Made by a program: the position numbers and the translations under genes. This document shows positions 1,752 to 40,230 of a stretch of 64,000 nt of DNA, piece by piece (the first letter of the stretch is position 1; each line of letters begins with the position of its first letter). Under the pieces are notes generated by a model that was not told where the DNA came from, did not search any database, and saw only the letters and a list, made by a program, of their open reading frames with translations. Source of the stretch: Candidatus Algichlamydia australiensis. GTDB taxonomy: Bacteria; Chlamydiota; Chlamydiia; Chlamydiales; JAJFMI01. The stretch lies in the NCBI GenBank assembly GCA_033977065.1, contig JAXCHI010000004.1, positions 92,724 through 156,723 of the forward strand. The letters are read 5' to 3'.

Positions 1752-4328
1752 TTATTTTGCACGTAAAATAATAGAATTATTTTCTAAAACAAGCTCTATA
1801 GTTTCACCTGCTTTAGTCGTCTCATCAAGAATAGCAGATGCGAGAGTGTTGGTCACCTCTTTTTGAATGAGGCGTTTTAGAGGACGTGCACCAAATATGG
1901 GGTCGTATCCAGTTTTAGCGAGATAGGTAACGACATGTGGGTCCCAGGTAAGGCTAATATTGCGCTCGAGCGCACGTTCTTGTACTTTTTTTAATTGAAT
2001 GAGGACAATCCTCTCCATCTCACGCTCTTGTAGAGGGAGAAAGGGGAGAATTTCATCTAGGCGGTTGATGAACTCAGGACGAAAGTGGCTCTTGACTGTG
2101 GGTTCGACAACTTCTAAAACTTCTTCTTTTGCCCACTCATTAGGGTGCGAGCTGAGTTTTTCCAGCAGTTGTTCAGAGCCGAGGTTTGAGGTCATGATGA
2201 AGAGCGCATTTTTTGCATTGACTGTGCGGCCCTTGCTATCGGTAATGCGTCCATCATCAAAGAGCTGAAGCAAAATATTGAATATGTCCGGGTGCGCCTT
2301 TTCAACTTCATCTAAAAGGACAACTGAATAGGGGCGGCGGCGCAAGCTTTCAGTAAGTTGACCTCCCTCATCGTAGCCTACATATCCGGGAGGAGAACCA
2401 ATTAGTTTTGCAACAGTGTGGCGCTCCATATATTCGGACATATCGAGACGTACCATCGCCTCTTCTTGCGAAAAGAGCTGGCTTGCTAGCGCTTTGGCAA
2501 GTTCGGTTTTCCCAACGCCTGTGGGCCCTACAAAGAGAAAGACGCCCAAGGGACGTGTGGGATCGCTTAAGCCTGCGCGCGAGCGACGGATCGCTTCACT
2601 CACAGCTTGTATAGCAAAGGGCTGTCCGATCACGCGATCAGAGAGGCGCTCTTCTAAGTGAAGGAGCTTTTCCTTCTCTGTTTCGACCATGTTTTGCACA
2701 GGAATACCGGTCCATTTGGCCACAATTTGTGCAATGAGGGGTTCATCCACTTCTTCTTGCAAAAGGCGATCGGGTAGAGAAGAGAGGCGCCCTTGTGCCT
2801 CTTCAATAGCGCGCTCCATTTGAGGAATACGTGAATAGCGCAGCTCTGCAACGCGATTATAATCGAGGCTACGATTAGCTTCCTCTTCTTGGTGGCGCAG
2901 CTGTTCCAGAGAGTTTTTCTTCTCTTTTACGTCAGAAATGAGTCTCTTCTCCTGATTCCAGCGCTCTTTTAGCACGTCGAGCTCTTCTTTAAGGTGGGCA
3001 ATCTCTTTAGCACTCTTCTCATCTTCGCGGCCCTCTTTTTTCAGCCGCTCCTGCTTTACAATCAAGCTTGCAAGTTCACGCTCTTTAATATCGATCGGCA
3101 GAGGTCGTGAACCAATCTGTATGCGAATTAAGCTAGCTGCTTCATCTATCAAGTCGATCGCTTTATCAGGAAGTCGGCGATCACTGATATAGCGATGGGA
3201 GAGAAGCACAGCGCTATATAGGGCATCTTCAGTGATTTGGACGCCATGATAGATCTCATAGCGCTCTTTCAGTCCACGCAAAATCGCGACGGCATCTTCT
3301 AAACTTGGTTCGGCTACTGTGACCGGCTGAAAACGGCGCTCGAGCGCGGCATCGCGCTCAATGTATTTTTGGTACTCGCTGAGTGTTGTGGCACCAACAC
3401 AGTGAAGTGAACCGCGCGATAGAGCAGGCTTAAGCAGGTTCGCAGCATCCATTGCACCTTCTGTTGCACCTGCACCAACCAGCGTATGAATCTCATCAAT
3501 AAAAAGAAGGATCTGCCCCTCTGCGCGCTCAATTTCTTGTAAAATGGATTTAAGACGCTCTTCAAATTCCCCACGAAATTTTGTTCCCGCAATTAAGGCG
3601 CCCATATCAAGCGCAACAAGCTGTTTATTTTTGAGAGCATCAGGGATGTCGCCGCTGACAATGCGCAGAGCCAAGCCCTCAGCAATTGCAGTCTTTCCAA
3701 CTCCAGGATCACCGATTAGGAGGGGGTTGTTTTTTGTGCGACGAGATAAGACTTGCATCGTGCGACGAATCTCTTCATGGCGTCCAATAACAGGGTCGAG
3801 CTTTCCCGATTTAGCAAGTTCGGTAAGATCGCGGCAGTATTTCTTGAGAGCTTGCATGTTCCCCTCAGCGGAAGGGGAGCCAACGGCTTTGCCACCACGC
3901 ATTTCTTTAACTTTCTCTTCAATTTGCGAAAGAGGGGCACCAGATTTTTTCACCAGACTGGCAAAAGGTTCACCGCCCTGCTGCCAAAAGAGATAGAAGA
4001 GATGGTCAGAGCTAATATAGCGATCGCCCCACTTTTGGCAGAGTGCTTGCGCAGCACTGATCATCTTTTGTAATTTTGGGTTAATGTTGGGCTGGTCAGG
4101 AGTTCCACTAAAGGTTGGAAGCTTGCTTAAACTCTTATCAACTTGCTTTAAGAGTCCCGTGCTATCGAGCTGCAAACTCGAGAAAAGAGTCGTGAAATAT
4201 CCACTGGGATCTTGCAGTAGCGCGTGTAAAAGATGATTTTCTGTTACCTCAACGTGAGAGCGTGCGTGCGCTTCTGAAAATGCTGCCTCTAGGGCGGCTT
4301 GAGTAGCTTCTGTAAACTCTGGTTGCAT
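1752..4328 (-). CDS. clpB: ATP-dependent chaperone ClpB (class I AAA+ disaggregase)
   Basis: 858 aa with a Clp N domain and two Walker A sites (GDPGVGKTAIAEG and GPTGVGKTELAKAL). A long coiled-coil middle domain lies between the two AAA modules (KERELASLIVKQERLKKE...EELDVLKERWNQEK). Confidence 0.93.
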   Translation of the reverse strand: MQPEFTEATQAALEAAFSEAHARSHVEVTENHLLHALLQDPSGYFTTLFSSLQLDSTGLLKQVDKSLSKLPTFSGTPDQPNINPKLQKMISAAQALCQKWGDRYISSDHLFYLFWQQGGEPFASLVKKSGAPLSQIEEKVKEMRGGKAVGSPSAEGNMQALKKYCRDLTELAKSGKLDPVIGRHEEIRRTMQVLSRRTKNNPLLIGDPGVGKTAIAEGLALRIVSGDIPDALKNKQLVALDMGALIAGTKFRGEFEERLKSILQEIERAEGQILLFIDEIHTLVGAGATEGAMDAANLLKPALSRGSLHCVGATTLSEYQKYIERDAALERRFQPVTVAEPSLEDAVAILRGLKERYEIYHGVQITEDALYSAVLLSHRYISDRRLPDKAIDLIDEAASLIRIQIGSRPLPIDIKERELASLIVKQERLKKEGREDEKSAKEIAHLKEELDVLKERWNQEKRLISDVKEKKNSLEQLRHQEEEANRSLDYNRVAELRYSRIPQMERAIEEAQGRLSSLPDRLLQEEVDEPLIAQIVAKWTGIPVQNMVETEKEKLLHLEERLSDRVIGQPFAIQAVSEAIRRSRAGLSDPTRPLGVFLFVGPTGVGKTELAKALASQLFSQEEAMVRLDMSEYMERHTVAKLIGSPPGYVGYDEGGQLTESLRRRPYSVVLLDEVEKAHPDIFNILLQLFDDGRITDSKGRTVNAKNALFIMTSNLGSEQLLEKLSSHPNEWAKEEVLEVVEPTVKSHFRPEFINRLDEILPFLPLQEREMERIVLIQLKKVQERALERNISLTWDPHVVTYLAKTGYDPIFGARPLKRLIQKEVTNTLASAILDETTKAGETIELVLENNSIILRAK

Positions 4329-7031: not shown

Positions 7032-7847
7032 ATGAATGTACCCAACAGAAGCCTATTAGGAATAGGAAAGCAATCTCGTAGATATCTGCAAAGAGTACTT
7101 GCTGTAAATGAAGGGGTTATTACTCCCAAAAGAGTCGCAGAAATATTAAATATTAAGATTTCGCGTGCAAACGTACTCCTTTCTTACTGGACATCTCGTG
7201 GGTGGCTACAGAGAATCCGTCAAGGCGCATATGTAGAGGTTTCACTGAGAGGAGCCTCAACAGATCGAGCGTTGGAAGATCCTTGGGTTATTGCAGAGCA
7301 ACTTTTTTCACCTTGTTTTATCACAGGCTTAACAGCTGCTCAATATTGGGATTTTACGGAACAAATTGTTGAAGTTGTAACGGTTTTTACTGAAATACCC
7401 ATACGTCACAGAAAACAAGAAATAGGGAAAGTGCGTTTTGTTTTTAAGCAAACTTCTCAAGAGAAAAGATTTGGATTAAAAAAGATTTGGCGTGATAATA
7501 TTCCGGTATATTTTGCAGATCCATCTCGAACATTAGTAGATCTGTTAGCAGATCCAGCACTTGGAGGAGGAATTGTGAGTGTAGAGGAAATTCTATTAGA
7601 ATATTGGAGGAGCGATCATTTGAACCGTGATCTTCTCCTAAATTATGTAAAAAAATACAACAATAAAACAATATTCAAGCGCCTTGGTTTTTTACTTGAA
7701 AAAAATCAATTTGAAGAAGAAAATTTTTTGAAGACATGTCGTGAAAACATAAGCAAGGGATATTCTCAGCTCGATCCGTCGATAAAAGGAAGCCGACTAT
7801 CAAAAAGGTGGGGCCTGTGGTACCCGGAAAAATATAATATAAAATGA
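7032..7847 (+). CDS. type IV toxin-antitoxin system AbiEi-family antitoxin / transcriptional regulator
   Basis: 271 aa. The N-terminal winged-helix-like segment (GVITPKRVAEILNISRANVLLSYWTSRGWLQRIRQGAY) is typical of AbiEi. It sits immediately upstream (1-nt gap) of an AbiEii-type nucleotidyltransferase gene. Confidence 0.7.
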   Translation: MNVPNRSLLGIGKQSRRYLQRVLAVNEGVITPKRVAEILNIKISRANVLLSYWTSRGWLQRIRQGAYVEVSLRGASTDRALEDPWVIAEQLFSPCFITGLTAAQYWDFTEQIVEVVTVFTEIPIRHRKQEIGKVRFVFKQTSQEKRFGLKKIWRDNIPVYFADPSRTLVDLLADPALGGGIVSVEEILLEYWRSDHLNRDLLLNYVKKYNNKTIFKRLGFLLEKNQFEEENFLKTCRENISKGYSQLDPSIKGSRLSKRWGLWYPEKYNIK

Positions 7848-7848
7848 A

Positions 7849-8685
7849 ATGATTTTAAAAGAAGAGATTTTGGTGCAGGCTGATGAGCACAATCTTTTTC
7901 CTACTACCATTGAAAAAGATTATGTCCTCAGTTGGGTATTATGGGGTATTTTTCTACATCCGTTGCTTTCTTCAAAACTTGTTTTCAAGGGCGGAACTTG
8001 TTTAAAAAAATGTTTTTTTGGCTCATATAGATTTTCGGAAGATCTTGACTTTACTCTTACAAAGCCCACAACACTGATCGAGTTAGAAAAAAGCTTTCAA
8101 GAGGTTTGTGAATGGGTTCAAGAGAACTCACGGATTATGTTTTTTCAGAAAAAGCAAAAATTTGAGGAATACAAAACACCTCGTGGTAACTTAGCATTTC
8201 AGGGGAGACTGCGTTATCAAGGGCCATTAAAACATAAAACAAGTTTCCCTAAAATCAAACTTGATATTACTGCTCATGAAATTCTTGTTGAGAAACCTTC
8301 TTTGTGTAAAGTCCTTCATCATTATTCCGATAGCTGCAAAGAAGAGGTGCAAATTGCTACCTATTCATTTGAAGAAGTTTTTGCGGAAAAAATCCGAGCG
8401 CTCATTCAAAGGTCGCGCCCACGCGATCTCTATGATGTTATCCACTTAAATAATCAACAAATACATGCTTATAATAAAGCTTTGGTGCGTGATATTTTGC
8501 TGAAAAAATGTAATTTTGCAAAAGTTCCTTACCCAGAAATAGAAAAGCTACTAAACAGACAAAATAAAGAATTTGTGGCGACGGGCTGGAGCAACATGTT
8601 AGCGCATCAGATTTCTGGACTTGAGCCTGTGGAGCATTATTGGAAGCAGCTTCCTGAGGTATTTTCTTGGATCCAGCAGGTTTAA
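7849..8685 (+). CDS. AbiEii/AbiGii-family nucleotidyltransferase toxin (DUF1814)
   Basis: 278 aa with the family signature KDYVLSWVLWGI...LVFKGGTCLKKCF...YRFSEDLDFT and the later FAEKIRALIQRSRPRDLYD motif. Confidence 0.85.
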   Translation: MILKEEILVQADEHNLFPTTIEKDYVLSWVLWGIFLHPLLSSKLVFKGGTCLKKCFFGSYRFSEDLDFTLTKPTTLIELEKSFQEVCEWVQENSRIMFFQKKQKFEEYKTPRGNLAFQGRLRYQGPLKHKTSFPKIKLDITAHEILVEKPSLCKVLHHYSDSCKEEVQIATYSFEEVFAEKIRALIQRSRPRDLYDVIHLNNQQIHAYNKALVRDILLKKCNFAKVPYPEIEKLLNRQNKEFVATGWSNMLAHQISGLEPVEHYWKQLPEVFSWIQQV

Positions 8686-27723: not shown

Positions 27724-29244
27724 TTAGCCTAGGCGTGACTCTAGGCGTAGCTCTGCATCCAAACCCTCCATTTGAATATGAGGTAGGATACAAATCGAGC
27801 AAGAGTACCAGCCAATATTTCCTTCTTGCTCTTTTACAGAGATAGTGGCTGCCTTAAACGGGAATCTTCTAAGCGTTAGGTTATCAGGATTTGTAATCGC
27901 TGTAGTATAGTTTTCAATCCATCTTGATAGAACGCCCTGGAGATAAGGTGCATCAGCTGAAGAACCGACATTATCAAGGGCTATGATTTTTACGTAGTGT
28001 GCAATTCTTGTAATTGAGTAAGTGTAAGAGAGGTTGCAAACCATCTGAGCATTTTCTGAGTCTTTAGGGTCGACAAAAGCTTTTGGCTTTTTTAACGACT
28101 GGGTGCTAAAAAAGCACGCTTCTCCACTATTTTTTCGATATACAAGGGGAATAAAGCCACACTCGGCAAATTCGAGTTCGCGATACCCTGGAATCACCAT
28201 CTCAACAGGAATTTTTATTTCCTCTTTTCCGCCCATGCTAAAGGTGTGAACAGGTAGTCCCATAATGAGCCCACCCCCTTTTGGTCCTCGTAGGTATTGG
28301 CACCAACCGGACGAGTCAAAGGAGCGATAGAGATTTTTGGCAAAGAGTACAGCAGCATTTCCCCACGAGTACTTGCTGTTATCATGAAAACTCGCCTGTT
28401 TTTCTTTATCATCGGGTTTCATATTTTCAGTGAAATTTAAATCACCGCAAGGATTTTTGACGGGATCCCATGGAAGTCTCTGAACGTAAGAGGGGAGGCA
28501 GAGACCAAGATAAGCAGACTCCTCAGTTTCACGGATAGCGTTGAAAGAGGCGTACTTTGGGTTGCTCATAAGACCCTTGAAATCCTTAATTGCTGCAAGC
28601 TCTTCAATGGTTTCGCATCCGAAAAATTGTGTTGAAACAGAGCTTACAAATGGAGCGTGAGATGCTGCTGCAATTTTGCTCATGATCTTAAGCCACTCCT
28701 CATCTGCAGGAGTATGATCAAATTTATAGAGCCCAATAATACTGCCGAAAGGTTCTCCACCAAACTGGTCATACTCAGCACTGTAAACCTTGGAAAAGAG
28801 GGAAGAGCCTGTAAAGTCAACAGAATTTTTTTCAAAATCTTCTTGTAGTTCTTCTTTAGAGACGTCTAGAAAATCAAGCTTTTGCGCGTTATCAACATTA
28901 TTAAAGTTACACTCCTTTGCAATGTCGAAAAGGCCCATCCAGGATGACTCAAGTTCTTTAAATTCTTTTTTATGAATGATCTCGTTAATTTGGTCGTTTA
29001 TCATCTCATTGATTCGAGAAATAACCTCTTGGATTTTGGCTTTATCGAGGCGGACACTCTGTCGATCGACGTTCCAAATAAGAGCTGCTAGTGTAGAAGC
29101 AAAGCGTGCAGCGTCTGAAACATCTTCGTTAATCACTTTACGTTCTTCTTGGACAATTGGTATAAGAGCTGTCTCTTCATCCCAATCCATGCGAAGGCTC
29201 TTAATTAGCTTCTCTATTGTAATTTCTTCAGTAGCTGTGCTCAT
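27724..29244 (-). CDS. tssC: T6SS contractile sheath large subunit TssC (VipB)
   Basis: 506 aa with strongly conserved TssC blocks (YDQFGGEPFGSIIGLYKF..., IAAASHAPFVSSVS, GFIPLVYRKNSGEACFFSTQSLKKPK). Confidence 0.95.
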   Translation of the reverse strand: MSTATEEITIEKLIKSLRMDWDEETALIPIVQEERKVINEDVSDAARFASTLAALIWNVDRQSVRLDKAKIQEVISRINEMINDQINEIIHKKEFKELESSWMGLFDIAKECNFNNVDNAQKLDFLDVSKEELQEDFEKNSVDFTGSSLFSKVYSAEYDQFGGEPFGSIIGLYKFDHTPADEEWLKIMSKIAAASHAPFVSSVSTQFFGCETIEELAAIKDFKGLMSNPKYASFNAIRETEESAYLGLCLPSYVQRLPWDPVKNPCGDLNFTENMKPDDKEKQASFHDNSKYSWGNAAVLFAKNLYRSFDSSGWCQYLRGPKGGGLIMGLPVHTFSMGGKEEIKIPVEMVIPGYRELEFAECGFIPLVYRKNSGEACFFSTQSLKKPKAFVDPKDSENAQMVCNLSYTYSITRIAHYVKIIALDNVGSSADAPYLQGVLSRWIENYTTAITNPDNLTLRRFPFKAATISVKEQEGNIGWYSCSICILPHIQMEGLDAELRLESRLG

Positions 29245-29777
29245 TTTTTCTCCTCCACTTTTTCCTCTTTTATGGATATTGTGTAGTCCTTCTCATACTT
29301 TTGCAGTTTATTTCGCAGGTTCGCAAAAGATTCAGGATCCGAGTAAAGACGGTTAAGTAGTTGTGCAAACTCTTTTTTATTCGCCACATTTGATTGCATT
29401 TCTTCTAAAAATCTCTTCAATAGAAGAAGAGAACGAATTTCAGGAACACGCTCAGCTATTTTTTGAGGGTTGAATGATTTCATGCTGTCAATAGGCAACT
29501 TGACACGAAGCTCTCCTCCATGTGCACTAAGCTTATTGTCGACAACCATATTTAAACTAATATTCATCTCTTTCATATGATGATCAAAATTATCACCGTT
29601 AATGCTGCGGAGAGAACGCTCATCAAGATCTTTTTTTCGATCTCTAGATGTGCCGTTGGAAAAATTTCCGAGAACCAGTAAGCGAAGAGGAAGGTTAACA
29701 CCTTTCGGCTCACCGTTAATTGTTGTTCTGTATCTGAGAGTGATACGTGACTTTTTTACTTCATCCTGTACTGACAT
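29241..29777 (-). CDS. tssB: T6SS contractile sheath small subunit TssB (VipA)
   Basis: 178 aa with TssB blocks (SRITLRYRT...VNLPLRLLVLGNFS...INGDNFDHHMKEMNISL...FNPQKIAERVPEIRSLLLLKRFL). ATGA overlap with tssC. Confidence 0.95.
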   Translation of the reverse strand: MSVQDEVKKSRITLRYRTTINGEPKGVNLPLRLLVLGNFSNGTSRDRKKDLDERSLRSINGDNFDHHMKEMNISLNMVVDNKLSAHGGELRVKLPIDSMKSFNPQKIAERVPEIRSLLLLKRFLEEMQSNVANKKEFAQLLNRLYSDPESFANLRNKLQKYEKDYTISIKEEKVEEKK

Positions 29778-29882: not shown

Positions 29883-29911
29883 TTGCGTAAAAATTTTCAC
29901 TTTCATACCAT
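29883..29911 (+). promoter_or_regulatory. candidate sigma70-like promoter (TTGCGT-17 nt-TACCAT) in the divergent tssB / 29940-operon intergenic region
   Basis: The hexamers and 17-nt spacer were read from the sequence, about 28 nt upstream of the GGGAGG-preceded ATG at 29940. Pattern match only. Confidence 0.3.
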
Positions 29912-29939
29912 TTTCCTTGAATTTACCTGGGAGGTTTCT

Positions 29940-31268
29940 ATGGTATACATATCTGGTCCTAGCGATACCCTTGGACAGCTAAAAGAAATTGATGGTTATC
30001 AAGGGTCTTTAGAGGAGTACTGCCAAAAGTTCAATACGCAGAATGGAACGAGTTATCTAAACACAGATGCTCGTCTGCTTCCGTATTACCCTTATATTTT
30101 AATTTCTGAACCACCAATCGATGTGGAGGGGGCTCAAGAAGCTGTTTCAGTTATAAAAAACTTTCCAGAGGAAGTTCGAGAGCGCATGCGTCTTATGCAA
30201 GTGGAAGGGATTGATATGTTAACGCACCTCGCATTGTCAGAGGTTTTTGATAAAGCAAGGCGTTACGCTGATAGTGCAAGGAGTTGGATGGATGAGCCCT
30301 TGATTACGACCCCATGGAATTTTATTAATGTTTCGCTAACGAACCAATCAGCAATTGATCTGGTTACTGGAGCATTACCAGACGTAACAGAAGCGATACT
30401 TAAGAGTTCATTTCCCTATGATCCGTTACATGCTCTATCCTTTCATATGATGGAAATGGATAAGTCCAATCGGGAGCTTGCTCGACTCAATTTGATAAAA
30501 GGAAGAGATAATGATCCCAATTTTTTTAGACAGAAAGAGCAATTGCGCGAGAGTGTTAAAATGCATAAATTGGAAATCAAAAGAATCTTGCCCGCTAGTT
30601 TAGATAGCGAACTCCAGAAGTTTTTACGAAAAATATATACACCAGATGTAATTAGAAAAATTAGAAATGGAGTCTTATCAAGTAGATTAGCTCGAAAAGG
30701 GGCAAAAAGCTCGAATTCTAAAATTCAAGCAAGGTCGGTATTATCTGAGTTGCAATTTATGACTAAAACTGGTCTTGAAACTTTCGAGAAAAGAATGGCA
30801 ATGCTTAAAACAGTTGGCGGTACCTTAGGTTCTACGGGGACGTTTCTTTCGTATGGATTGGTTGCGTATGATACAGAACGTGCATACCACGAGGGGGATG
30901 GAGTGATGAAGACATTTTTCAGCGAAATGGCAGGTCTTGAAGTTAGTGCTTACATGAGTGCTGCAGTAACATCACGAGTACTTATGGGTGTTAGCGCAAT
31001 TGCTGGAGAAGAGCTCTTGGTAGGGGGTGCCATTGTTTGTGCTGCAACTGTAGGTTGGGTCGTAGTTTTGGGCGCAGGCCTATTAGCCGCAGGATATGTA
31101 GGAGCGAAAGCGACGGGAATCATTCAGTATTTATGGGAACCTGAAAATCGAAAAGAAGTGTGGGAAGAGGTAAAAGCTAATACTCACGCTGCGGAAAAAC
31201 ATATTATAGATGCGTGGGACACCTCTCGAGATTGGGTTCGCCATTTTTATGCCGGTTCAGATGAGTGA
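29940..31268 (+). CDS. hypothetical protein with C-terminal Gly/Ala-rich transmembrane cluster
   Basis: I chose the start at 29940 (GGGAGG 6 nt upstream) rather than the track start at 29883. The C-terminal 120 aa hold 2-4 hydrophobic Gly-rich helices (VSAIAGEELLVGGAIVCAATVGWVVVLGAGLLAAGYVGAKATG). Confidence 0.6.
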   Translation: MVYISGPSDTLGQLKEIDGYQGSLEEYCQKFNTQNGTSYLNTDARLLPYYPYILISEPPIDVEGAQEAVSVIKNFPEEVRERMRLMQVEGIDMLTHLALSEVFDKARRYADSARSWMDEPLITTPWNFINVSLTNQSAIDLVTGALPDVTEAILKSSFPYDPLHALSFHMMEMDKSNRELARLNLIKGRDNDPNFFRQKEQLRESVKMHKLEIKRILPASLDSELQKFLRKIYTPDVIRKIRNGVLSSRLARKGAKSSNSKIQARSVLSELQFMTKTGLETFEKRMAMLKTVGGTLGSTGTFLSYGLVAYDTERAYHEGDGVMKTFFSEMAGLEVSAYMSAAVTSRVLMGVSAIAGEELLVGGAIVCAATVGWVVVLGAGLLAAGYVGAKATGIIQYLWEPENRKEVWEEVKANTHAAEKHIIDAWDTSRDWVRHFYAGSDE

Positions 31269-31334: not shown

Positions 31335-33017
31335 ATGGATAACATAGGAAAAATTTTTCTCCTGTTTGCATCAATTGGCATCTGTTTGTTTGGAGTTGAT
31401 GAAGAGATAGTAGGAGATGAAGAAGTGCAGCGAAAAGGCAGAGGCTGGGGTGATTGGTTCACTACGTGGACACTTTCTGAAAAGGCAGAAGGAGCCTACC
31501 GCAGTGTTTTTAAGGCTGAAGAGTGGGCGCCTATAGACAATAGCCAAATAGAACAGGCACAAAAAACACTTAAACAACTTGAAACTGAAATTGACGGTCT
31601 AAAGATTCATCGTAACGCGTTAGAAATAAATATTAATAATTTAAAAGGTGAGTATGAAGAATTAAAGGAAGAAGTTGAACCGAGGATTTCAAACCTTAAA
31701 GCAGACGAAAGAGGGCTTGACGGATGGGAATTAAAGCTTAAAAATAGGGGGGAAAATCTAAAGATAATAGAAGAAAAACTTCAAGAAGATAAAGATCAAT
31801 ATGAAATTGATAAAGCTTTATTAGAAACAAAGCTTAAGGAAGAAATTCCGGTATTGAGAGAAGGATATGAAAGTGAGCGAGGATTTTATCAAACGCGAAT
31901 GCAGGCGTTAAGGAGTGCAAAGCAGAGGTATATCCCAGATGCTAAATGTGAAACTACCCTCAAACAGTTTTCTTACTTTGTCTATGATCCTCTGCCCGTT
32001 AGCAGATGGCTTGCAAATATGAGCCTAAGTAGTTTTTATGAGAGTGACCTGGGCACACTATTCCGAGAGCATCAAAATTTCATCGATATTAACTCCATGA
32101 ATCGCTTTGAAATTTGGCTAGAACCCTTTGGTCTCTACTCTCTCTGGGATCAAGATGGGGAGAAGATTCAATGTAGAATGCAAGCAGTTGGTTTTACGAT
32201 GGGAGGAGGAGTTTCCTTTGCTGACCAGTGTGCTCTTGGTCTTGGCTTTGGATATTGGTATACAGATTTGCGTTCTAGAGATAGTGATGAATTTAAGGGA
32301 GGGTACGACACCTTTGTTCTTGGGCCCTATTTTAATTGGAGTTTTGGCAAAGGATATTTTGGATTGATGCTTTGGGGTGGATGGAGCGATTTTTCTGTTA
32401 GCAGAGAGGGACAGTTTGATGAGATAGTTCAGCGAACAGAGAATACTCACACAGGATGGAGTTTAGCAGGAAGAGCAGAACTGGGGTATTCATTTGTAGT
32501 GGGAAATATTGCAGCAAACCCCACCTTTATCAAGCCTTTCATCACTTTTGATTACTACAGTGATTTTCAAGAGGCGTATACAGAAGAGAATGGTTCCAAT
32601 AAAGCGTATGGTGCTATTGAAATATATAAAGTAGAAAACAACAGACACTGCAACTTTTTAAGTACTAAAGCTGCTCTTGAATGTAAAAAAGAGTATCATA
32701 AGCATGGAAAAGGCTACTTTATTCCAACGGCTACAGTTGGCTGGCGCTATTTACACCCACTTGCTTGTGATGACTCTAAAGTAAAGTGCTTTATTGCGCC
32801 GGATGAAGGTGATGCAAGCGACAAAAAAGCTGCTTTAGGGGCAGCTTTGCATACAGTCTCGCATACTAGTTATGTATCAAATAATCAAATATTTTTAGAC
32901 ACAGGTTTTGCTTATATTGCTCGCAATGGTATTGCAACTGCATTGCAAATTGAAGCAAGCATTGGCTCACACTATCAAATTTATGGCGCAGAGGTACGCC
33001 TAGAAATTGGCTGGTAA
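31335..33017 (+). CDS. secreted coiled-coil protein with C-terminal autotransporter-type beta-barrel domain
   Basis: A signal-like N-terminus (IFLLFASIGICLFG) is followed by about 150 aa of heptad-rich coiled coil. The C-terminal approx 300 aa show alternating aromatic/Gly beta-strand patterns (GFTMGGGVSFAD...LGLGFGYWYTD...GPYFNWSFGKGYFGLMLWGGW...GRAELGYSF). The protein ends in an aromatic residue (LEIGW). Confidence 0.6.
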   Translation: MDNIGKIFLLFASIGICLFGVDEEIVGDEEVQRKGRGWGDWFTTWTLSEKAEGAYRSVFKAEEWAPIDNSQIEQAQKTLKQLETEIDGLKIHRNALEININNLKGEYEELKEEVEPRISNLKADERGLDGWELKLKNRGENLKIIEEKLQEDKDQYEIDKALLETKLKEEIPVLREGYESERGFYQTRMQALRSAKQRYIPDAKCETTLKQFSYFVYDPLPVSRWLANMSLSSFYESDLGTLFREHQNFIDINSMNRFEIWLEPFGLYSLWDQDGEKIQCRMQAVGFTMGGGVSFADQCALGLGFGYWYTDLRSRDSDEFKGGYDTFVLGPYFNWSFGKGYFGLMLWGGWSDFSVSREGQFDEIVQRTENTHTGWSLAGRAELGYSFVVGNIAANPTFIKPFITFDYYSDFQEAYTEENGSNKAYGAIEIYKVENNRHCNFLSTKAALECKKEYHKHGKGYFIPTATVGWRYLHPLACDDSKVKCFIAPDEGDASDKKAALGAALHTVSHTSYVSNNQIFLDTGFAYIARNGIATALQIEASIGSHYQIYGAEVRLEIGW

Positions 33018-33843
33018 AATACAAAAAAAACTGCAAGAGCAGATCAAACGTTTTGATGTTGGGCCTCTTTTGCAACTTCTCTACACCCTGGGATATACTC
33101 AAGAGGAAGTTCTTTTCGAGTCAAATCCCGATCTCTCATCTAGAGATAGCGTTTGTGAAGAGATCTCTTTTCAGAATGAATTTCCACAAGTAAGGATTTT
33201 GCTTAATCGGGGGCTTTTATCTAATGCTTCTGCCCTTCCCTCTTACTTTCGAAAAAAAATGGATGAGGGGGAGCTAAATAGCCACCTTTTTTCTAGGTTT
33301 CTAAGCTTTTTTGATCACCACTTAGCTGAGCATTCACTTTCAGCTAAGCTGCTTGATCAAGGGGGCGCGTACTTTGATTGGGAAGAGACGCAACAGCACT
33401 ATCTTCGATTCCTTGTATTCAATAGCATTTCTACTATCTGTTTTCTTTTCCAACTTTGTTTTCCAGAACTAGTTATAAAAGTTTTTAAGTCTCCTAAAAT
33501 AATAAAATTAGAGGGATCTTCCTTGATTTTGGGAAAAGCATTTTTGGGTAAATCATATTTAGGAGAGAACTCATACAAAATACTACCTAGTTATGAAGTG
33601 ATGATTTTTAGCGATCAATCACACACAGACTGTGAAATTCCATGGCCGAAAGAGGCGCGTGAAAGACTATTGGAAATAATCTTTCCCTTTTTACACGGAA
33701 TGAACCTATATCTGATTGTAAAAATGATTTTCGAAGATTGTAAAAATCCTATCTATTTAAAGGAAGAGCCAATTTTAGGGTATGGAACGGTTGGTGTAAT
33801 TGAAGGGCCTCTAATAACTCACCTATTTTCCGGAGAAGTTTAA
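33007..33843 (+). CDS. tssG: T6SS baseplate protein TssG
   Basis: 278 aa with TssG-like motifs (FDVGPLLQLLYTLGY...EISFQNEFPQVRILLNRGLLSNASALPSYF...FLSFFDHHL). An 11-nt overlap links it to the upstream barrel-protein gene. Confidence 0.72.
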   Translation: MAGKIQKKLQEQIKRFDVGPLLQLLYTLGYTQEEVLFESNPDLSSRDSVCEEISFQNEFPQVRILLNRGLLSNASALPSYFRKKMDEGELNSHLFSRFLSFFDHHLAEHSLSAKLLDQGGAYFDWEETQQHYLRFLVFNSISTICFLFQLCFPELVIKVFKSPKIIKLEGSSLILGKAFLGKSYLGENSYKILPSYEVMIFSDQSHTDCEIPWPKEARERLLEIIFPFLHGMNLYLIVKMIFEDCKNPIYLKEEPILGYGTVGVIEGPLITHLFSGEV

Positions 33844-35599: not shown

Positions 35600-36280
35600 A
35601 TGAGAAACAGACAGCCTACTATAAATACTATGGATAAAATGTATGGACTTGGCCAACCAAGACTACCAAATGAAACACCCCTACCTCGAACTGAAGTCAG
35701 AGGTCCCGCAATAAATATCGTTTTTTCTGGACCCAGATCTACACCTATGCCTGGACTTCCCAAGCCTGATTCCGAGATTTTTAACGCACGCCGCGAAGAT
35801 CTTGAGCAGATGAGGGTGGAAGTGGGCTCTTTATCTGACTCTGAAGATGAGTTTATGAGTGATGCGCTTCAAGGAGTTCAAGAAACTGCAGAGTTACTTA
35901 ACAACGATCCCACAGCCGGTATGAAACAAGTAGATGAAGCAATGTCTTCGCTAAGTTTGAATCCTGCAGCTACTCCAAATGTTTCGGAACATTTAGGTGC
36001 AGCAATGTCTTTGTTAGATCTTAACCCAGGTCCTTCCCCAGCACGTATACCAACAGCACCTGGTAAGGTTACTCGGAAAGATCCACCAAATATTAAGAGG
36101 CAACATCGAGAAGCAAAAGGGCATAAATTTGGCAGCGGACGAGGCCGAACACGTCTTATTCCTCTCCATCTTAATCTCAGAAGTGTAACAAATGGTAAAA
36201 CGACTGTTGTGATAAGACCTCTAAATAAGGCCGCATCCGGTAAGTCCAGTTCTCTTCGACGATTTGGCCGGGGCGATTAA
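35600..36280 (+). CDS. hypothetical Pro/Ser-rich, probably disordered protein
   Basis: 226 aa and low complexity. Its 3' end overlaps the convergent malQ 3' end by about 100 nt. Coding status is uncertain. Confidence 0.4.
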   Translation: MRNRQPTINTMDKMYGLGQPRLPNETPLPRTEVRGPAINIVFSGPRSTPMPGLPKPDSEIFNARREDLEQMRVEVGSLSDSEDEFMSDALQGVQETAELLNNDPTAGMKQVDEAMSSLSLNPAATPNVSEHLGAAMSLLDLNPGPSPARIPTAPGKVTRKDPPNIKRQHREAKGHKFGSGRGRTRLIPLHLNLRSVTNGKTTVVIRPLNKAASGKSSSLRRFGRGD

Positions 36281-37679
36281 TACGTTCATCATCTAAGTTT
36301 TCCCAAACTAGATCACTTGATAGAGCGAGGTACTCTCCTAATAAGTTGATGTGAAAGAGGCTATTTGAAGTGTGCGCTGCATGCAAAATTTTCTTTCGCA
36401 TCTCCTTTGAAAGGGTTGGTTTGTAAACCATGCCAATCTGTTTTGCAAATTGTTTCGCCTCGTTAGGTTCATTTTCCCACCACTGCGCAAGCGTCTCAGA
36501 GTCGTGTGTGGAGAGACAGGTCATTGAGAGCTTTTGGTACTCATTTGGTGGAAGTTTCTCCCAGCGCATCACTTTAGTTCCTGGAATTTTTAGCTCTTGC
36601 ATGACCTCATTCATTCCATCAAACGTAATTCCTAAGTCCTCACCAATTGGCACCATCTTACTCGATTTTTTTAGCATCTCTAAAAGTTTACGCCCTTGCG
36701 CCAAAGCTTGCCAAGGTTCATTTGGTAGAAACTGTCCTCTGCTTGCGCACTCTCCGCGTTTGATCGCCCAGATGCGGAAAAAACCGATCACATGGTCAAT
36801 CCGGTAGAGGTGAAAAAAGTTTTCTGCATAGCGAAGGCGTGTTTTCCACCAGGCGAAATCTTGCTGCTCTAAAATATTCCATTTATAGAGAGGAAAACCC
36901 CAGTATTGGCCTTCAGGGGTAAAACGATCGGGTGGAGCTCCTGCGCTATGTGTGAGGTCGAAAAATTCTCGATGGTGCCAGACGTCGGCGCTATCAGGAC
37001 TAATGAGGATGGGGATGTCACCTTTGAGCAGGATGTTTTTTTCTGAGGCGTATTGCTTGATGCGCAAAAGTTGGTCATAACAGAGGTATTGCAGAAACAT
37101 GTGATACTGCACCTCTTTTTCGTGACGATGCAAAAGCTCTTTGTAGTGGTGGTGGGAGCAGGTTCGGATCTCCTCGGGCCAATCTTGCCAGTTTTGTCCC
37201 TGCATATTCTCTTTTAGTACTTTGAAAAGAGCGTAGGGAAGAAGGTGATCTTGGGTTTTACAAAAATTTTGAAAGGACTCTTTTGCGCAGATCTCTTGAC
37301 CTTTGAGTTCATAGTAACGCTCCAAGTAGAGCATTTTGTTTTCTAAAACTTCTTTGTAGGCAACGCGTTTTCCCCCGTTCAAACTCTCTAGTTTCTTGAG
37401 CAGTTTTTCAAGCTCTGTGCAATGCGTCTGTTCTAATTGTCGCAGTCCGATATAGATCGGGTGTAGAGCACTTCCGGAGAGCGCATTGTAAGGGCTTGGA
37501 TCGGTTCCTGAGTCATTGATTGGAAGAATTTGAATGAGATCAAAGTCGACTTTTTTACACCAGTCGATGAGAGGAATAAGGTCGGGAAATTCGCCGATTC
37601 CGCAGCTTGTTTTTGAACGCAAAGCCGAAAGAGGGATCGCGATACCGTGATGTGCTTTTGAAAGAATCTCTTTTTCCAT
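36177..37679 (-). CDS. malQ: 4-alpha-glucanotransferase (amylomaltase)
   Basis: GH77 motifs are present (GIAIPLSALRS...GIGEFPDLIPLIDW...ILPINDSG; YWGFPLYKW; HLYRIDHVIGFFRIW). I set the start at Met21 (37679), 5 nt after the chaperone gene stop. Confidence 0.9.
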   Translation of the reverse strand: MEKEILSKAHHGIAIPLSALRSKTSCGIGEFPDLIPLIDWCKKVDFDLIQILPINDSGTDPSPYNALSGSALHPIYIGLRQLEQTHCTELEKLLKKLESLNGGKRVAYKEVLENKMLYLERYYELKGQEICAKESFQNFCKTQDHLLPYALFKVLKENMQGQNWQDWPEEIRTCSHHHYKELLHRHEKEVQYHMFLQYLCYDQLLRIKQYASEKNILLKGDIPILISPDSADVWHHREFFDLTHSAGAPPDRFTPEGQYWGFPLYKWNILEQQDFAWWKTRLRYAENFFHLYRIDHVIGFFRIWAIKRGECASRGQFLPNEPWQALAQGRKLLEMLKKSSKMVPIGEDLGITFDGMNEVMQELKIPGTKVMRWEKLPPNEYQKLSMTCLSTHDSETLAQWWENEPNEAKQFAKQIGMVYKPTLSKEMRKKILHAAHTSNSLFHINLLGEYLALSSDLVWENLDDERINRPGQIVEENWTYRMRPYLEVLSQQSFYHLLHF

Positions 37680-37684
37680 TTTTT

Positions 37685-38104
37685 TTAAGTCCCGAGATCT
37701 ACCGGAAGGGGTAGGTTTTGCTGAATTGCCTCCTGCCATCGATGCGCTTTGTCGACAAGTACAAGCAAAATTTCAAACAGTTTTTTTCCATTAAGTTCCG
37801 CCATAGGCGTACTGGCATAGAGGAGGAGCTCGTCGCTGCGTCTTGAAAAAGAGAGGGAGCCGATGAGAGGAGAGGAGAGAGCGTTTTCTTGTAGCGCTGC
37901 TGTTAATACCTGTTCGCGATACTTCCCTGGAGGCAGCTTCTCAATAACACAGATGATCACAAGTTTTTCCTGATTTTCAGAGAGCTCAATTTGAGTAAAA
38001 AGGCTGTTTTTAAAAGTGATGGCACAGGTGCTATCACCTGTTGCTTTAAGAGGTGTAGCGAGTTCTTGAGAGAGCTCCTGAATGATGGTTTGAAATCTAT
38101 CCAT
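37685..38104 (-). CDS. type III secretion chaperone, CesT/SycE (Scc1)-like
   Basis: About 139 aa, acidic, with a CesT-like pattern (FQTIIQELSQEL...AITFKNSLFTQIELSENQEKLVIICVI...LLYASTPMAELNGKKLFEIL). I set the start at 38104, preceded by GAGGAGGAAG. Its position between malQ and copN matches chlamydial synteny. Confidence 0.7.
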   Translation of the reverse strand: MDRFQTIIQELSQELATPLKATGDSTCAITFKNSLFTQIELSENQEKLVIICVIEKLPPGKYREQVLTAALQENALSSPLIGSLSFSRRSDELLLYASTPMAELNGKKLFEILLVLVDKAHRWQEAIQQNLPLPVDLGT

Positions 38105-39251: not shown

Positions 39252-39284
39252 GTCCTCAAGCTATAAAGGAAAAACTTTACTCGG

Positions 39285-40148: not shown

Positions 40149-40230
40149 ATTCTCCCTGTTTGTTAAGATTGTATCAAAATGTGTTTTTTTGCTCCATCAG
40201 ATGAGGAGGAAGATTGTAATATAAAAATCT

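What the first reader, a model, noticed from the sequence alone, without database searches (positions are those of the whole stretch)
1752..4328. T6SS locus has no ClpV; the only Clp/Hsp100 ATPase in the window is a ClpB about 6 kb away
None of the 20-odd genes between 10.0 and 33.9 kb has AAA+ Walker motifs, so the sheath-recycling ATPase TssH/ClpV is not encoded in the locus. The nearest Hsp100 is the 858-aa protein at 1752..4328. It has the long middle coiled-coil domain of housekeeping ClpB.

The Francisella pathogenicity-island T6SS also lacks ClpV and uses ClpB to disassemble its sheath. This locus shares other features with that system. The gene order is tssB-tssC-(non-Hcp-like approx 210-aa protein)-tssK, as in iglA-iglB-iglC-iglD. 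The spike tip is DUF4280-type, as IglG is. Unlike Francisella, TssE, TssF, TssG and the TssM Walker A are sequence-canonical here. The system may therefore be an intermediate or separate T6SS lineage.
Basis: partly seen in the sequence, partly recalled or inferred. Interest (0 to 1): 0.6.

Follow-up and report, generated by a model that had tools for sequence, protein, structure and literature searches.

The report
Francisella-like T6SS lacking its own ATPase
A chlamydial symbiont of coral algae carries a type VI secretion system related to the Francisella one but with no recycling ATPase of its own; its relatives in other phyla encode a ClpB-like ATPase beside the system, not the usual ClpV, so ClpB-driven recycling may be widespread.

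Summary
The window comes from Candidatus Algichlamydia australiensis (Simkaniaceae). It has a T6SS block at about 8.7-33.8 kb with no AAA+ gene. The only Hsp100 in the window is a real, vertically inherited ClpB at 1752-4328.

The 6-kb spacing is incidental. The two closest relatives have the same ClpB neighbourhood without a T6SS. In one of them the T6SS lies about 155 kb from clpB.

IglE, IglI, an IglH-type TssF and a DUF4280 protein are all present. TssC groups as sister to Francisella IglB (200/200 NJ bootstraps) and away from six canonical T6SS-i references.

The T6SS belongs to a wide lineage (212 relatives) in Chlamydiota, Desulfobacterota, Syntrophales, Methylococcales, Planctomycetota and Myxococcota. 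Outside the chlamydial-type and Myxococcota-type loci, a dedicated ATPase gene abuts tssM in 26 of 26 loci where the upstream DNA is visible. That ATPase is ClpB-type, not ClpV-type, and has a full M domain. Chlamydial-type loci lack it (0 of 7).

The housekeeping ClpB is therefore the best candidate sheath recycler, as in Francisella. This is inferred, not shown. About a quarter of the genome annotation could not be checked for a ClpV.

The parts
1752..4328 (-). Housekeeping ClpB (858 aa). It is the candidate sheath-recycling ATPase but is not part of the T6SS block.
   Evidence: It scores 1198.7 bits on ClpB model TIGR03346 against 842.1 on ClpV model TIGR03345. It is 86-87% identical to the ClpB of the closest relatives and 66-72% identical to other chlamydial ClpBs. 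It groups with E. coli ClpB in 186/200 bootstraps.
8682..9842 (-). Hypothetical 386-aa protein at the left edge of the inserted block.
   Evidence: It has no Pfam or NCBIfam hit. No gene lies at this position in relatives L094 and L095, where AbiEii abuts the TPR/transglutaminase gene directly.
10017..13451 (+). TssM/PdpB-like membrane-complex protein (1144 aa) with Walker A GGPNSGKT.
   Evidence: It has a weak IcmF_helical hit of 20.3 bits. The authors' eggNOG annotation gives COG3523/IcmF_C. The Walker A is conserved in all lineage TssM proteins.
13448..13864 (+). IglE-like lipoprotein, the counterpart of TssJ.
   Evidence: Pfam IglE_N scores 48.6 bits against a cut-off of 26. NCBIfam T6SS_IglE scores 59.2 bits against a cut-off of 75.
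13861..15507 (+). Conserved 548-aa ANL-superfamily-like protein in the position of FPI iglF.
   Evidence: It has weak hits to AMP-binding and acetyl-CoA synthetase. It follows iglE in nearly all lineage loci.
15511..15840 (+). DUF4280 (PAAR-like, IglG-type) spike-tip protein.
   Evidence: Pfam DUF4280 scores 33.5 bits against a cut-off of 26.3.
15879..19904 (+). 1341-aa ankyrin-repeat protein, a likely secreted cargo.
   Evidence: Ank_2 gives E = 9e-45. A 982-aa ankyrin-repeat protein occupies the same slot in relative L096.
20298..20912 (-). TssL/DotU.
   Evidence: Pfam DotU scores 54.3 bits. The eggNOG seed ortholog is from Fangia hongkongensis.
20872..22500 (-). TssF of the IglH type.
   Evidence: NF041246 IglH/TssF scores 90 bits and passes its cut-off of 75. 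TIGR03359 scores 99 bits, below its cut-off of 260.
22505..23443 (-). IglI-family protein (TssA-like).
   Evidence: NF041244 scores 200.9 bits against a cut-off of 100.
23447..25423 (-). 658-aa protein conserved across the lineage, of unknown role. A spike or baseplate role is suggested by position only.
   Evidence: Homologs are present in most lineage loci. It has no Pfam or PDB hit, and hhalign against VgrG gives a probability of 0.4%.
25420..25788 (-). TssE (gp25-like).
   Evidence: Pfam GPW_gp25 scores 39.9 bits against a cut-off of 27.2. TIGR03357 scores 35.3 bits, below its cut-off of 53.2.
25785..27035 (-). TssK.
   Evidence: TIGR03353 scores 280.7 bits against a cut-off of 100.
27013..27654 (-). 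213-aa protein in the Hcp/IglC slot, the putative inner-tube protein.
   Evidence: It is a divergent member (E = 1e-10) of a ~190-aa family that lies between tssC and tssK in the lineage loci where that interval could be read. The family has no detectable similarity to Hcp.
27724..29244 (-). TssC/IglB-like sheath large subunit. It has a conserved N-terminal helix motif, ITIEKLIKSLRM.
   Evidence: VipB gives E = 1.2e-100. The best PDB hit is Francisella IglB at 373 bits. It is 100% identical to the Algichlamydia MAG protein. The N-terminal motif is shown.
29241..29777 (-). TssB/IglA-like sheath small subunit.
   Evidence: T6SS_VipA scores 145.8 bits.
29883..31268 (+). 461-aa accessory protein of unknown function.
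   Evidence: Homologs lie next to tssB or tssM in chlamydial loci L009, L018 and L019. It has no Pfam hit.
31335..33017 (+). Autotransporter beta-domain protein (560 aa). It is linked to the T6SS in chlamydial loci.
   Evidence: Pfam Autotransporter scores 61.8 bits. A homolog occupies the same position in L096.
33007..33843 (+). 278-aa IglJ-like protein, a possible TssG counterpart.
   Evidence: NF041243 IglJ scores only 20.9 bits (E = 2e-4, cut-off 100). The family is conserved after dotU in most lineage loci.

Best explanation
Window bases 8.7-33.8 kb hold a complete-looking contractile T6SS. It belongs to a lineage that is the closest known relative of the Francisella pathogenicity-island system (T6SS-ii). 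The block sits in the chromosome of the obligate intracellular chlamydia Ca. Algichlamydia australiensis.

In the Desulfobacterota, Syntrophales, Methylococcales and Planctomycetota branch of this lineage, the ATPase associated with the system is a dedicated ClpB paralogue, not ClpV. This paralogue has a full M domain and is encoded directly upstream of tssM. The chlamydial branch has lost that gene.

The contracted TssB/TssC sheath is therefore most likely unfolded and recycled by the cell's single housekeeping ClpB (1752-4328), as in Francisella. Recruitment would be through the ClpB N domain, probably by binding the conserved amphipathic N-terminal helix of TssC.

The 6-kb distance between clpB and tssM results from a genome-specific insertion or relocation of the T6SS block. 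It has no functional meaning.

Shown here: gene content, lineage relationships, ATPase type in sister loci, absence of an Hsp100 from all chlamydial loci examined, and lack of conserved linkage. Inferred: that ClpB acts on the sheath, and how it is recruited.
For: - Identity and type of ClpB.
- No other Hsp100 in the window.
- FPI-specific components.
- TssC is 51-79% identical to 212 relatives in many phyla, against at most 38% to 579 plasmid-borne canonical TssC.
- IglB is sister to the lineage (200/200 bootstraps; 40-44% against 28-34% identity).
- An Hsp100 gene abuts tssM in 26 of 26 loci outside the chlamydial-type and Myxococcota-type groups where the upstream DNA is visible. It is absent from 7 of 7 chlamydial-type loci.
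- That ATPase is ClpB-type. It scores 1108-1163 bits on the ClpB model against 774-804 on the ClpV model. It keeps M-domain motif 2 (RVAELQYKxIP) and has no ClpV-like N-terminal extension. It is 45-51% identical to the E. coli and window ClpB sequences against 34-37% to three ClpV references. It forms its own clade in 194/200 bootstraps.
- The Methylococcales copy is 62% identical to the Syntrophus copy but only 50% identical to E. coli ClpB. It therefore travels with the T6SS.
- The chlamydial TssC keeps the N-terminal helix motif.
- The core T6SS genes are under purifying selection relative to the closest relative (pN 0.12-0.29 with synonymous sites saturated).
- The authors' annotation table was readable for 73% of its rows. 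It lists ClpB, ClpC and two short single-ring AAA+ proteins, and no ClpV (K11907).
- In Francisella, ClpB co-localises with contracted sheaths. Its N domain is needed for secretion, its DnaK contact is not, and E. coli ClpB complements the mutant (PMC7182274).
Against: - There is no direct evidence that any ClpB binds this sheath.
- The MAG is 91.7% complete (PMC11317633). About 430 annotated genes outside the window and outside the stored part of the table were not inspected.
- ClpV is dispensable or absent in some working T6SSs, including Campylobacter, Helicobacter and partly V. cholerae (cited in PMC7182274). No ATPase may be needed.
- The N domain of the window ClpB is only 25% identical to the one island ClpB N domain compared. 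Shared recognition of TssC is therefore not evident from sequence.
- The trees are NJ only, with six canonical references and no T6SS-iii or T6SS-iv sequences.
Confidence: 0.55

Rival explanations
1. No ATPase recycles the sheath. The chlamydial system fires rarely, for example once per developmental cycle. Contracted sheaths are removed by proteolysis or dilution, so losing the dedicated ClpB had no replacement.
For: All 7 chlamydial-type loci lack any Hsp100. ClpV-less T6SSs work in Campylobacter and Helicobacter, and a V. cholerae clpV mutant keeps partial activity (PMC7182274). The Campylobacter plasmid locus fetched here has no tssH.
Against: [quoted passage not shown] It stays conserved in chlamydial TssC although the dedicated ATPase is gone. 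Francisella, the closest studied system, does need ClpB.
Confidence: 0.2
2. Another Hsp100 or AAA+ protein of the genome does the job. Candidates are ClpC (EFCAOE_00480) and the 556-aa eukaryote-like CLPB/Skd3-type single-ring ATPase (EFCAOE_00420), which lies next to a DnaJ-domain gene.
For: Both are listed in the authors' annotation. ClpC has a Clp_N domain that could dock substrates.
Against: Neither is linked to a T6SS locus in any genome examined. The ATPase that the lineage encodes next to tssM is ClpB-type with a full M domain. The Skd3-like protein lacks an N domain of the Clp_N type.
Confidence: 0.1
3. A dedicated ClpV or island-type ClpB exists elsewhere in the genome, in the part not inspected or not assembled.
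For: 459 of about 1687 rows of the annotation table were not stored. The MAG is 91.7% complete.
Against: No K11907 and no second full-length ClpB appears in the 73% of the annotation that was read, or in the window. No Hsp100 appears in any of the chlamydial loci fetched (L008-L023). None of the named proteins among the top 120 relatives of an island ClpB is chlamydial. That listing stops at 66% identity, so this last point is weak evidence.
Confidence: 0.1
4. The T6SS is a decaying, non-functional relic, so the missing ATPase needs no explanation.
For: Chlamydiae have reduced genomes. The tube-slot protein is extremely divergent (19% identity to the closest relative).
Against: All core ORFs are intact. 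pN is 0.12-0.29 while synonymous sites are saturated. The system is kept in many chlamydial MAGs at 62-79% TssC identity.
Confidence: 0.04

Closest known systems
Francisella pathogenicity island T6SS (T6SS-ii) with housekeeping ClpB as sheath unfoldase
   Same: No ClpV or other Hsp100 is encoded in the island. It shares an IglE-type lipoprotein, an IglI-family protein, an IglH-type TssF and a DUF4280/IglG spike tip. The module order tssM(pdpB)-iglE-...-DUF4280 and tssB-tssC-tube-tssK also matches. TssC is closest to IglB among solved structures and in the tree. The host is an intracellular bacterium.
   Different: TssK, TssB, TssC and TssE are still recognisable by canonical models. TssM keeps its Walker A, which PdpB lacks. 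No homologues of PdpA, the small VgrG, IglC, PdpC or PdpD were detected by sequence. IglB falls outside the lineage, not within it. The organism is a chlamydia, and the likely cargo is an ankyrin-repeat protein.
Canonical proteobacterial T6SS-i with ClpV/TssH
   Same: It has a contractile TssB/TssC sheath, a TssK/TssE/TssF baseplate and a TssL/TssM membrane complex. An amphipathic helix at the TssC N terminus sits where ClpV docks in canonical systems.
   Different: No TssH, TssJ, TssG, TssA, Hcp or VgrG was detectable with canonical models. TssC is at most 38% identical to 579 plasmid-borne TssC sequences. In the helix motif the acidic pair (D/E-E/S) is replaced by K-R in sister loci and is variable in chlamydiae.
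ClpB-type ATPase encoded next to tssM in sister loci (Desulfobacterota, Syntrophales, Methylococcales, Planctomycetota)
   Same: It has the same domain plan as the window ClpB: Clp_N, NBD1, a full M domain with motif 2, and NBD2. It lies in the position where a T6SS ATPase would be expected.
   Different: It forms a separate clade, 43-47% identical to the window ClpB. It travels with the T6SS across phyla. Databases name it only 'ClpB' or 'AAA family ATPase', never TssH. It is absent from all chlamydial loci.
ClpV-less T6SS-i of Campylobacter jejuni and Helicobacter hepaticus
   Same: They are working T6SS clusters without a tssH gene.
   Different: They belong to a canonical subtype (C. jejuni TssC is 58% identical to Vibrio TssC and 36% to the window TssC). 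They have TssJ, TssG, Hcp and VgrG.

Membership tests
ClpB (ATP-dependent disaggregase, TIGR03346) | Clp_N domain plus two AAA+ modules with Walker A/B | tested here: met
   Pfam finds Clp_N, AAA, AAA_lid_9, AAA_2 and ClpB_D2-small. The Walker A motifs are GDPGVGKT (aa 209) and GPTGVGKT (aa 604).
ClpB (ATP-dependent disaggregase, TIGR03346) | Long coiled-coil M domain including motif 2 (DnaK-contact region) | tested here: met
   131 residues align to E. coli ClpB 400-535 and include 'RVAELRYSRIP'.
ClpB (ATP-dependent disaggregase, TIGR03346) | Score above the curated equivalog cut-off | tested here: not met
   It scores 1198.7 bits against a cut-off of 1232.1. It is the top family by more than 350 bits. 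Chlamydial orthologues are 66-87% identical. NCBI therefore names it only 'AAA family ATPase'.
ClpB (ATP-dependent disaggregase, TIGR03346) | DnaK-dependent disaggregase activity | not testable with these tools
   This needs a biochemical assay.
ClpV/TssH (TIGR03345) | Best match to the ClpV model, above its cut-off | tested here: not met
   It scores 842.1 bits, below the cut-off of 884.95 and below its own ClpB score. It is 35-36% identical to three ClpV references against 52% to E. coli ClpB.
ClpV/TssH (TIGR03345) | N-terminal extension (helix alpha0/H0) forming the TssC-binding cleft | tested here: not met
   In the alignment, the three ClpV references start about 9 residues earlier. The window ClpB and the island ClpBs start like E. 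coli ClpB.
ClpV/TssH (TIGR03345) | Encoded within the T6SS cluster | tested here: not met
   It lies 5.7 kb from tssM on the opposite strand, separated by six unrelated genes. It is unlinked in the closest relatives.
T6SS-ii (Francisella pathogenicity island type) | Sheath proteins group with IglA/IglB rather than with T6SS-i | tested here: met
   IglB is the best PDB hit (373 bits, against 335 for VipB). The split of canonical references from (lineage + IglB) has 200/200 NJ bootstraps. The lineage is sister to IglB, not nested among Francisella sequences. T6SS-iii and T6SS-iv were not sampled.
T6SS-ii (Francisella pathogenicity island type) | FPI-specific components IglE, IglI, IglH and IglG | tested here: met
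   IglE_N scores 48.6 (cut-off 26), the IglI family 200.9 (cut-off 100), IglH/TssF 90 (cut-off 75) and DUF4280 33.5 (cut-off 26.3).
T6SS-ii (Francisella pathogenicity island type) | IglJ, IglC, IglF, PdpA and the small VgrG | tested here: inconclusive
   IglJ scores only 20.9 bits against a cut-off of 100. The tube-slot protein, the 548-aa protein and the 658-aa protein have no FPI hits. An AF2 model of the 213-aa protein was unusable (pLDDT 32).
T6SS-ii (Francisella pathogenicity island type) | TssM homologue (PdpB) without Walker A, and highly divergent IglD in place of TssK | tested here: not met
   The Walker A GGPNSGKT is present and conserved across the lineage. TssK scores 280.7 bits on the canonical model.
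T6SS-ii (Francisella pathogenicity island type) | No Hsp100 in the island; the sheath is recycled by chromosomal ClpB | tested here: inconclusive
   The absence from the island is confirmed. ClpB action on the sheath was not testable.
Canonical T6SS-i | All 13 core genes (TssA-M, Hcp, VgrG) recognisable | tested here: not met
   TssH, TssJ, TssG, Hcp and VgrG are not detected, and TssA only marginally, below cut-off, on the IglI-family protein. TssC is at most 38% identical to all plasmid-borne TssC sequences.

The most novel reading that the evidence does not exclude
ClpB-driven sheath recycling may not be a Francisella oddity. It may instead be the ancestral state of a large, unrecognised T6SS clade, the sister group of FPI/T6SS-ii, found in Chlamydiota, Desulfobacterota, Syntrophales, Methylococcales, Planctomycetota and Myxococcota. 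Under this reading the clade recruited a ClpB paralogue with an intact M domain independently of ClpV. The paralogue co-evolved with a charge-reversed docking helix on TssC. Intracellular lineages (chlamydiae, and Francisella or its ancestor) later dropped the dedicated copy and handed the task to housekeeping ClpB.
Probability: 0.45. Interest if true: 0.8.

Novelty: new variant of a known kind. Interest (0 to 1): 0.68.

Why it matters
T6SS-ii is still described as unique to Francisella (PMC12955703, 2026). Its use of ClpB instead of ClpV is treated as a special case whose recognition mechanism is unknown (PMC7182274).

This window points to a much wider family of Francisella-like systems. One branch occurs in obligate intracellular chlamydiae, which are known for type III secretion, not type VI. 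The genome paper for this organism does not mention the T6SS.

Sister loci carry a dedicated ClpB paralogue beside tssM. This gives a natural comparison for how a ClpB-type N domain recognises a contracted sheath: dedicated ClpB, housekeeping ClpB and ClpV. Several culturable hosts are available for experiments.

It also flags an annotation gap. These ATPases are named 'ClpB' or 'AAA family ATPase' and are never linked to T6SS.

Tried and rejected
1. Functional linkage of clpB and tssM by proximity was rejected. L094 and L095 have the same ClpB neighbourhood with no T6SS, and in L094's organism the T6SS lies about 155 kb away.
2. I considered that the window ClpB might be the island-type ATPase or a chimera. 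It is 86-87% identical to the closest relatives' ClpB, 52% to E. coli ClpB and 43-47% to island ClpBs. It groups with E. coli ClpB. A sliding-window chimera test was not run.
3. I first assumed the Hsp100 upstream of tssM in sister loci was ClpV. NCBIfam scores, M-domain motif 2, the N terminus and the tree reject this.
4. Identifying the 213-aa protein as Hcp or IglC failed. It has no Pfam, NCBIfam or PDB hit alone or as a 37-sequence profile. hhalign against four Hcp sequences gave a probability of 1%. Single-sequence AF2 gave pLDDT 32.
5. Testing the 658-aa protein as VgrG gave an hhalign probability of 0.4% and no PDB hit.
6. A genome-wide ClpV search was only partial. The supplementary annotation table is truncated at 73% of its rows, and the collection scans cannot target one genome.
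7. Searching for a chlamydial orthologue of the island ClpB with the search for homologous proteins was uninformative. The 120 listed hits stop at 66% identity, and none of the named ones is chlamydial.
8. Literature searches for a chlamydial T6SS, for T6SS-ii outside Francisella, and for a T6SS-linked ClpB paralogue found nothing relevant in the held library. This does not prove that none has been published.


Full report
**Source and context**

The window TssC is 100% identical to a protein of the metagenome-assembled genome of Candidatus Algichlamydia australiensis. This organism is a Simkaniaceae chlamydia that infects the coral-associated dinoflagellate Cladocopium (PMC11317633). By the authors' coordinates the window is contig_4:92,724-156,723.

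Their paper describes a type III and a plasmid-borne type IV secretion system. It does not mention a type VI system, ClpV or ClpB in the text.

The right half of the window holds housekeeping genes and a chlamydial T3SS block: CopN, a CesT chaperone, SctV and SctU.

**Checking the observation**

The ORF at 1752-4328 (-) encodes an 858-aa Hsp100 with Clp_N, two AAA+ modules, AAA_lid_9 and ClpB_D2-small.
- It scores 1198.7 bits on the NCBIfam ClpB model and 842.1 on the ClpV/TssH model.
- It aligns colinearly with E. coli ClpB structures over residues 6-854.
- Its M domain is full length and includes motif 2.
- A phmmer search with it against every six-frame ORF of the window finds only itself.

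No protein between 10.0 and 33.9 kb has an AAA+ hit. The core observation is therefore correct.

Several details also hold. These are the order tssB-tssC-213aa-tssK, the DUF4280 protein, and a Walker A in TssM that is conserved across the lineage.

Some details do not hold. No canonical TssG is detectable. TssE scores 35.3 against a cut-off of 53.2, and TssF scores 99 against 260.3, so both fall short of the canonical NCBIfam models.

**What the T6SS is**

- Pfam IglE_N scores 48.6 bits.
- The NCBIfam IglI family scores 200.9 bits.
- The Francisella-specific IglH/TssF model scores 90 bits and passes its cut-off.
- IglJ gives only a weak hit of 20.9 bits.

The module tssM-iglE-548aa-DUF4280 mirrors pdpB-iglE-(vgrG)-iglF-iglG of the FPI. 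The FPI order is from my own knowledge.

Among solved structures the best match of TssC is Francisella IglB, at 373 bits. Vibrio VipB scores 335, Pseudomonas TssC1 323 and PDB entry 5urw (chain named TssC; Myxococcus xanthus from my memory) 310. All 579 plasmid-borne canonical TssC sequences are at most 38% identical to the window protein.

**A wide lineage**

A scan of 185,579 species genomes with a TssC alignment found 212 relatives, and 80 loci were fetched.
- Chlamydiota, plus one 'Verrucomicrobia' MAG and one 'Pseudobdellovibrionaceae' MAG: 62-67% identity.
- Desulfobacterota, Syntrophales, Methylococcales, Planctomycetota and Myxococcota: 51-60% identity.

These loci share the same core genes in much the same order, with rearrangements between branches.

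In an NJ tree with six canonical references (Vibrio, Pseudomonas, Campylobacter, Ralstonia, an E. coli plasmid and Rhizobium), three splits are well supported.
- Canonical references against (lineage + IglB): 200/200 bootstraps.
- The lineage monophyletic with IglB just outside it: 200/200.
- The chlamydial-type clade: 198/200.

IglB is 40-44% identical to lineage TssC and 28-34% identical to the canonical references. The caveats are that the trees are NJ only, IglB is a long branch, and T6SS-iii and T6SS-iv were not sampled. A system with TssM and TssL cannot be T6SS-iii, and one with a TssB/TssC sheath cannot be T6SS-iv (established knowledge).

**The key result on the ATPase**

I searched the six-frame ORFs of all fetched loci with the window proteins.
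- In the Desulfobacterota, Syntrophales, Methylococcales and Planctomycetota loci, an Hsp100 gene directly abuts tssM on the same strand. This holds in 26 of 26 loci where the upstream DNA is visible.
- It is absent from 7 of 7 chlamydial-type loci.
- It is also absent from 7 of 7 Myxococcota-type loci. There tssM follows dotU, and the ATPase could lie beyond the 10-kb flank.

I expected this gene to be clpV. It is not.
- Four representatives score 1108-1163 bits on the ClpB model against 774-804 on the ClpV model.
- They are colinear with ClpB. They keep a full M domain with motif 2 (RVAELQYKxIP), which the ClpV references lack. They start like ClpB, without the N-terminal extension of ClpV.
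- Per domain against E. coli ClpB they are 65-67% (NBD1) and 56-58% (NBD2) identical. Against Vibrio ClpV one representative gives 54% and 34%.
- They form their own clade (194/200), sister to E. coli ClpB plus the window ClpB (186/200). The three ClpVs lie outside (200/200).

The Methylococcales (gammaproteobacterial) copy is 62% identical to the Syntrophus copy but only 50% identical to E. coli ClpB. These genes therefore move with the T6SS and are not the hosts' vertical ClpB.

Public annotations call them 'ClpB', 'AAA family ATPase' or 'Clp protease ATP-binding subunit', never TssH.

**The window ClpB is the ordinary chlamydial one, and its position is a coincidence**

It is 86-87% identical to the ClpB of the closest relatives and 66-72% identical to ClpBs of Rhabdochlamydiaceae, Simkaniaceae and other Chlamydiota. 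The authors' eggNOG seed ortholog is the Simkania negevensis ClpB.

In the two closest relatives the backbone is the same as in the window: CopN-CesT-GH77-TPR/transglutaminase-AbiEii-AbiEi-MFS-Na/Ca exchanger-128aa-ClpB-MFS-sthA-L28. No T6SS lies between AbiEii and the TPR gene.

In one of them the T6SS, with the same internal gene order, lies at 284-306 kb of the scaffold and clpB at about 450 kb.

Window bases 8,682-33,843 are therefore an inserted or relocated block of about 25 kb. Its G+C is 0.35-0.41, against 0.44-0.49 in the neighbouring housekeeping DNA.

**Other Hsp100 proteins in the genome**

The authors' Bakta/eggNOG table (Table S8) is stored for 1,228 of about 1,687 rows. It lists four COG0542 members.
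- ClpB (this gene).
- ClpC (840 aa).
- A 385-aa single-AAA protein.
- A 556-aa single-ring AAA_2 + ClpB_D2-small protein. Its best hit is eukaryotic CLPB/Skd3, and it lies next to a DnaJ-domain gene.

There is no K11907 (ClpV) entry. Together with the window, about 75% of the annotation has been checked. The rest, and the roughly 8% of the genome that is missing, remain open.

**Is the system maintained?**

Against the closest relative, TssC, TssF, TssB, DotU, TssK, TssE, IglI and the 658-aa protein are 54-79% identical. Non-synonymous differences are 0.12-0.29 per site, while synonymous sites are saturated at 0.73-0.89. This indicates purifying selection.

The exception is the 213-aa protein in the Hcp/IglC slot, at 19% identity. 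It is still a member (E = 1e-10) of a ~190-aa family that fills this slot in the lineage loci where the interval could be read. That family has no detectable similarity to Hcp or to anything in Pfam or the PDB.

**Mechanism**

In canonical systems the ClpV N domain binds an N-terminal helix of TssC that becomes exposed on contraction (PMC5048182). The canonical TssC sequences fetched here carry [LI]L[DE][ES]I[IMV]xx[TS]R[IVLA] at that place. This matches the published TssC2 peptide ATDDCLEEIINNTRA.

Lineage TssC sequences carry DLKRFLSSMRL at the same place. The hydrophobic register and the Arg are the same, but the acidic pair is replaced by Lys-Arg.

Chlamydial TssC sequences keep the helix, for example ITIEKLIKSLRM in the window.

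I read this as a docking helix that co-evolved with a ClpB-type N domain, and that is still under selection where only the housekeeping ClpB remains. This is an inference.

In Francisella the ClpB N domain is required for secretion, the DnaK contact is not, and E. coli ClpB complements the mutant (PMC7182274). A generic ClpB can therefore serve a T6SS sheath.

The most likely model is as follows. After contraction, housekeeping ClpB is recruited through its N domain to TssC, threads sheath subunits and releases them for reassembly. I put this at about 0.55. The rivals are no recycling (0.2), another AAA+ protein (0.1), a hidden ClpV or island ClpB (0.1) and a dead system (0.04).

**Comparison with what is known, and novelty**

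The window system works like, and is related to, the FPI T6SS-ii. It is not a member in the strict sense. It keeps a Walker A in TssM and canonical-looking TssK, TssB and TssC, and it lacks detectable PdpA, IglC, small VgrG, PdpC and PdpD. IglB lies outside the lineage.

It is not a canonical T6SS-i either.

In the held literature T6SS-ii is still called unique to Francisella (PMC12955703). I found no report of a chlamydial T6SS or of a T6SS-linked ClpB paralogue. The library is incomplete, so prior description cannot be excluded.

I rate the finding a new variant of a known kind.

Noticed in passing
window 35600-43439: A chlamydial T3SS block lies directly beside the T6SS block. It contains GH77 (36177-37739), a CesT chaperone (37685-38125), CopN/HrpJ (38097-39251), an LRR protein (39285-40148), SctV/FHIPEP (40231-42360) and SctU (42357-43439). 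Two injection systems are thus adjacent in one obligate intracellular bacterium.
   Followed up: partly
window 8682-33843: The whole T6SS block is absent from this position in the two closest relatives (L094, L095), where AbiEii abuts the TPR/transglutaminase gene. The block has lower G+C (0.35-0.41) than its flanks (0.44-0.49). It appears to be a genome-specific insertion or relocation. No repeats or integrase were looked for.
   Followed up: partly
window 15879-19904: A 1341-aa ankyrin-repeat protein follows the DUF4280 (PAAR-like) gene directly. A 982-aa ankyrin protein sits in the same slot in relative L096. It is a likely eukaryote-directed T6SS cargo.
   Followed up: no
window 13861-15507: A degenerate ANL-superfamily (acyl-CoA synthetase-like) protein follows tssM-iglE in almost every lineage locus, in the position of FPI iglF. 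An enzyme-like fold as a fixed T6SS component is unexplained.
   Followed up: partly
window 27013-27654; L096:11516-12124: The putative tube protein is only 19% identical to that of the closest relative, while flanking T6SS genes are 57-79% identical. pN (0.57) approaches pS (0.66). The slot is hypervariable across the lineage and unrecognisable as Hcp or IglC.
   Followed up: partly
outside the window: authors' contig_2:4770-6440 (EFCAOE_00420): A 556-aa single-ring AAA_2 + ClpB_D2-small protein. Its best eggNOG match is eukaryotic CLPB/Skd3 (Opisthokonta). It lies next to a DnaJ-domain gene. It may be a eukaryote-derived disaggregase in a chlamydia.
   Followed up: no
window 7032-8685; L094:5627-7295: An AbiEi/AbiEii type IV toxin-antitoxin pair lies between clpB and the T6SS block. 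It is intact here, but AbiEii is split into two ORFs in relative L094. Relative L095 additionally has a HigB-like toxin nearby.
   Followed up: no
L046:11979-16190: In one Planctomycetota MAG the ClpB-type ORF is 1404 aa long, with about 520 extra N-terminal residues. It lies between tssC and dotU rather than upstream of tssM. It could be a fusion or a stop-to-stop artefact.
   Followed up: no
TssC N termini, e.g. window 29244 downward (aa 7-19); L027, L024, L052: The helix at the ATPase-docking position has K-R in ClpB-linked loci (DLKRFLSSMRL) where ClpV-linked TssC sequences have D/E-E/S (LLDEIMxxTRI). Chlamydial sequences are intermediate or variable at these two positions.
   Followed up: partly
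L014, L016: Two MAGs labelled Pseudobdellovibrionaceae and Verrucomicrobia carry T6SS loci that nest inside the chlamydial-type clade. A 'Verrucomicrobia' ClpB (P0277) is also 70% identical to the window ClpB. These may be mis-binned or mislabelled chlamydiae rather than cases of gene transfer.
   Followed up: no
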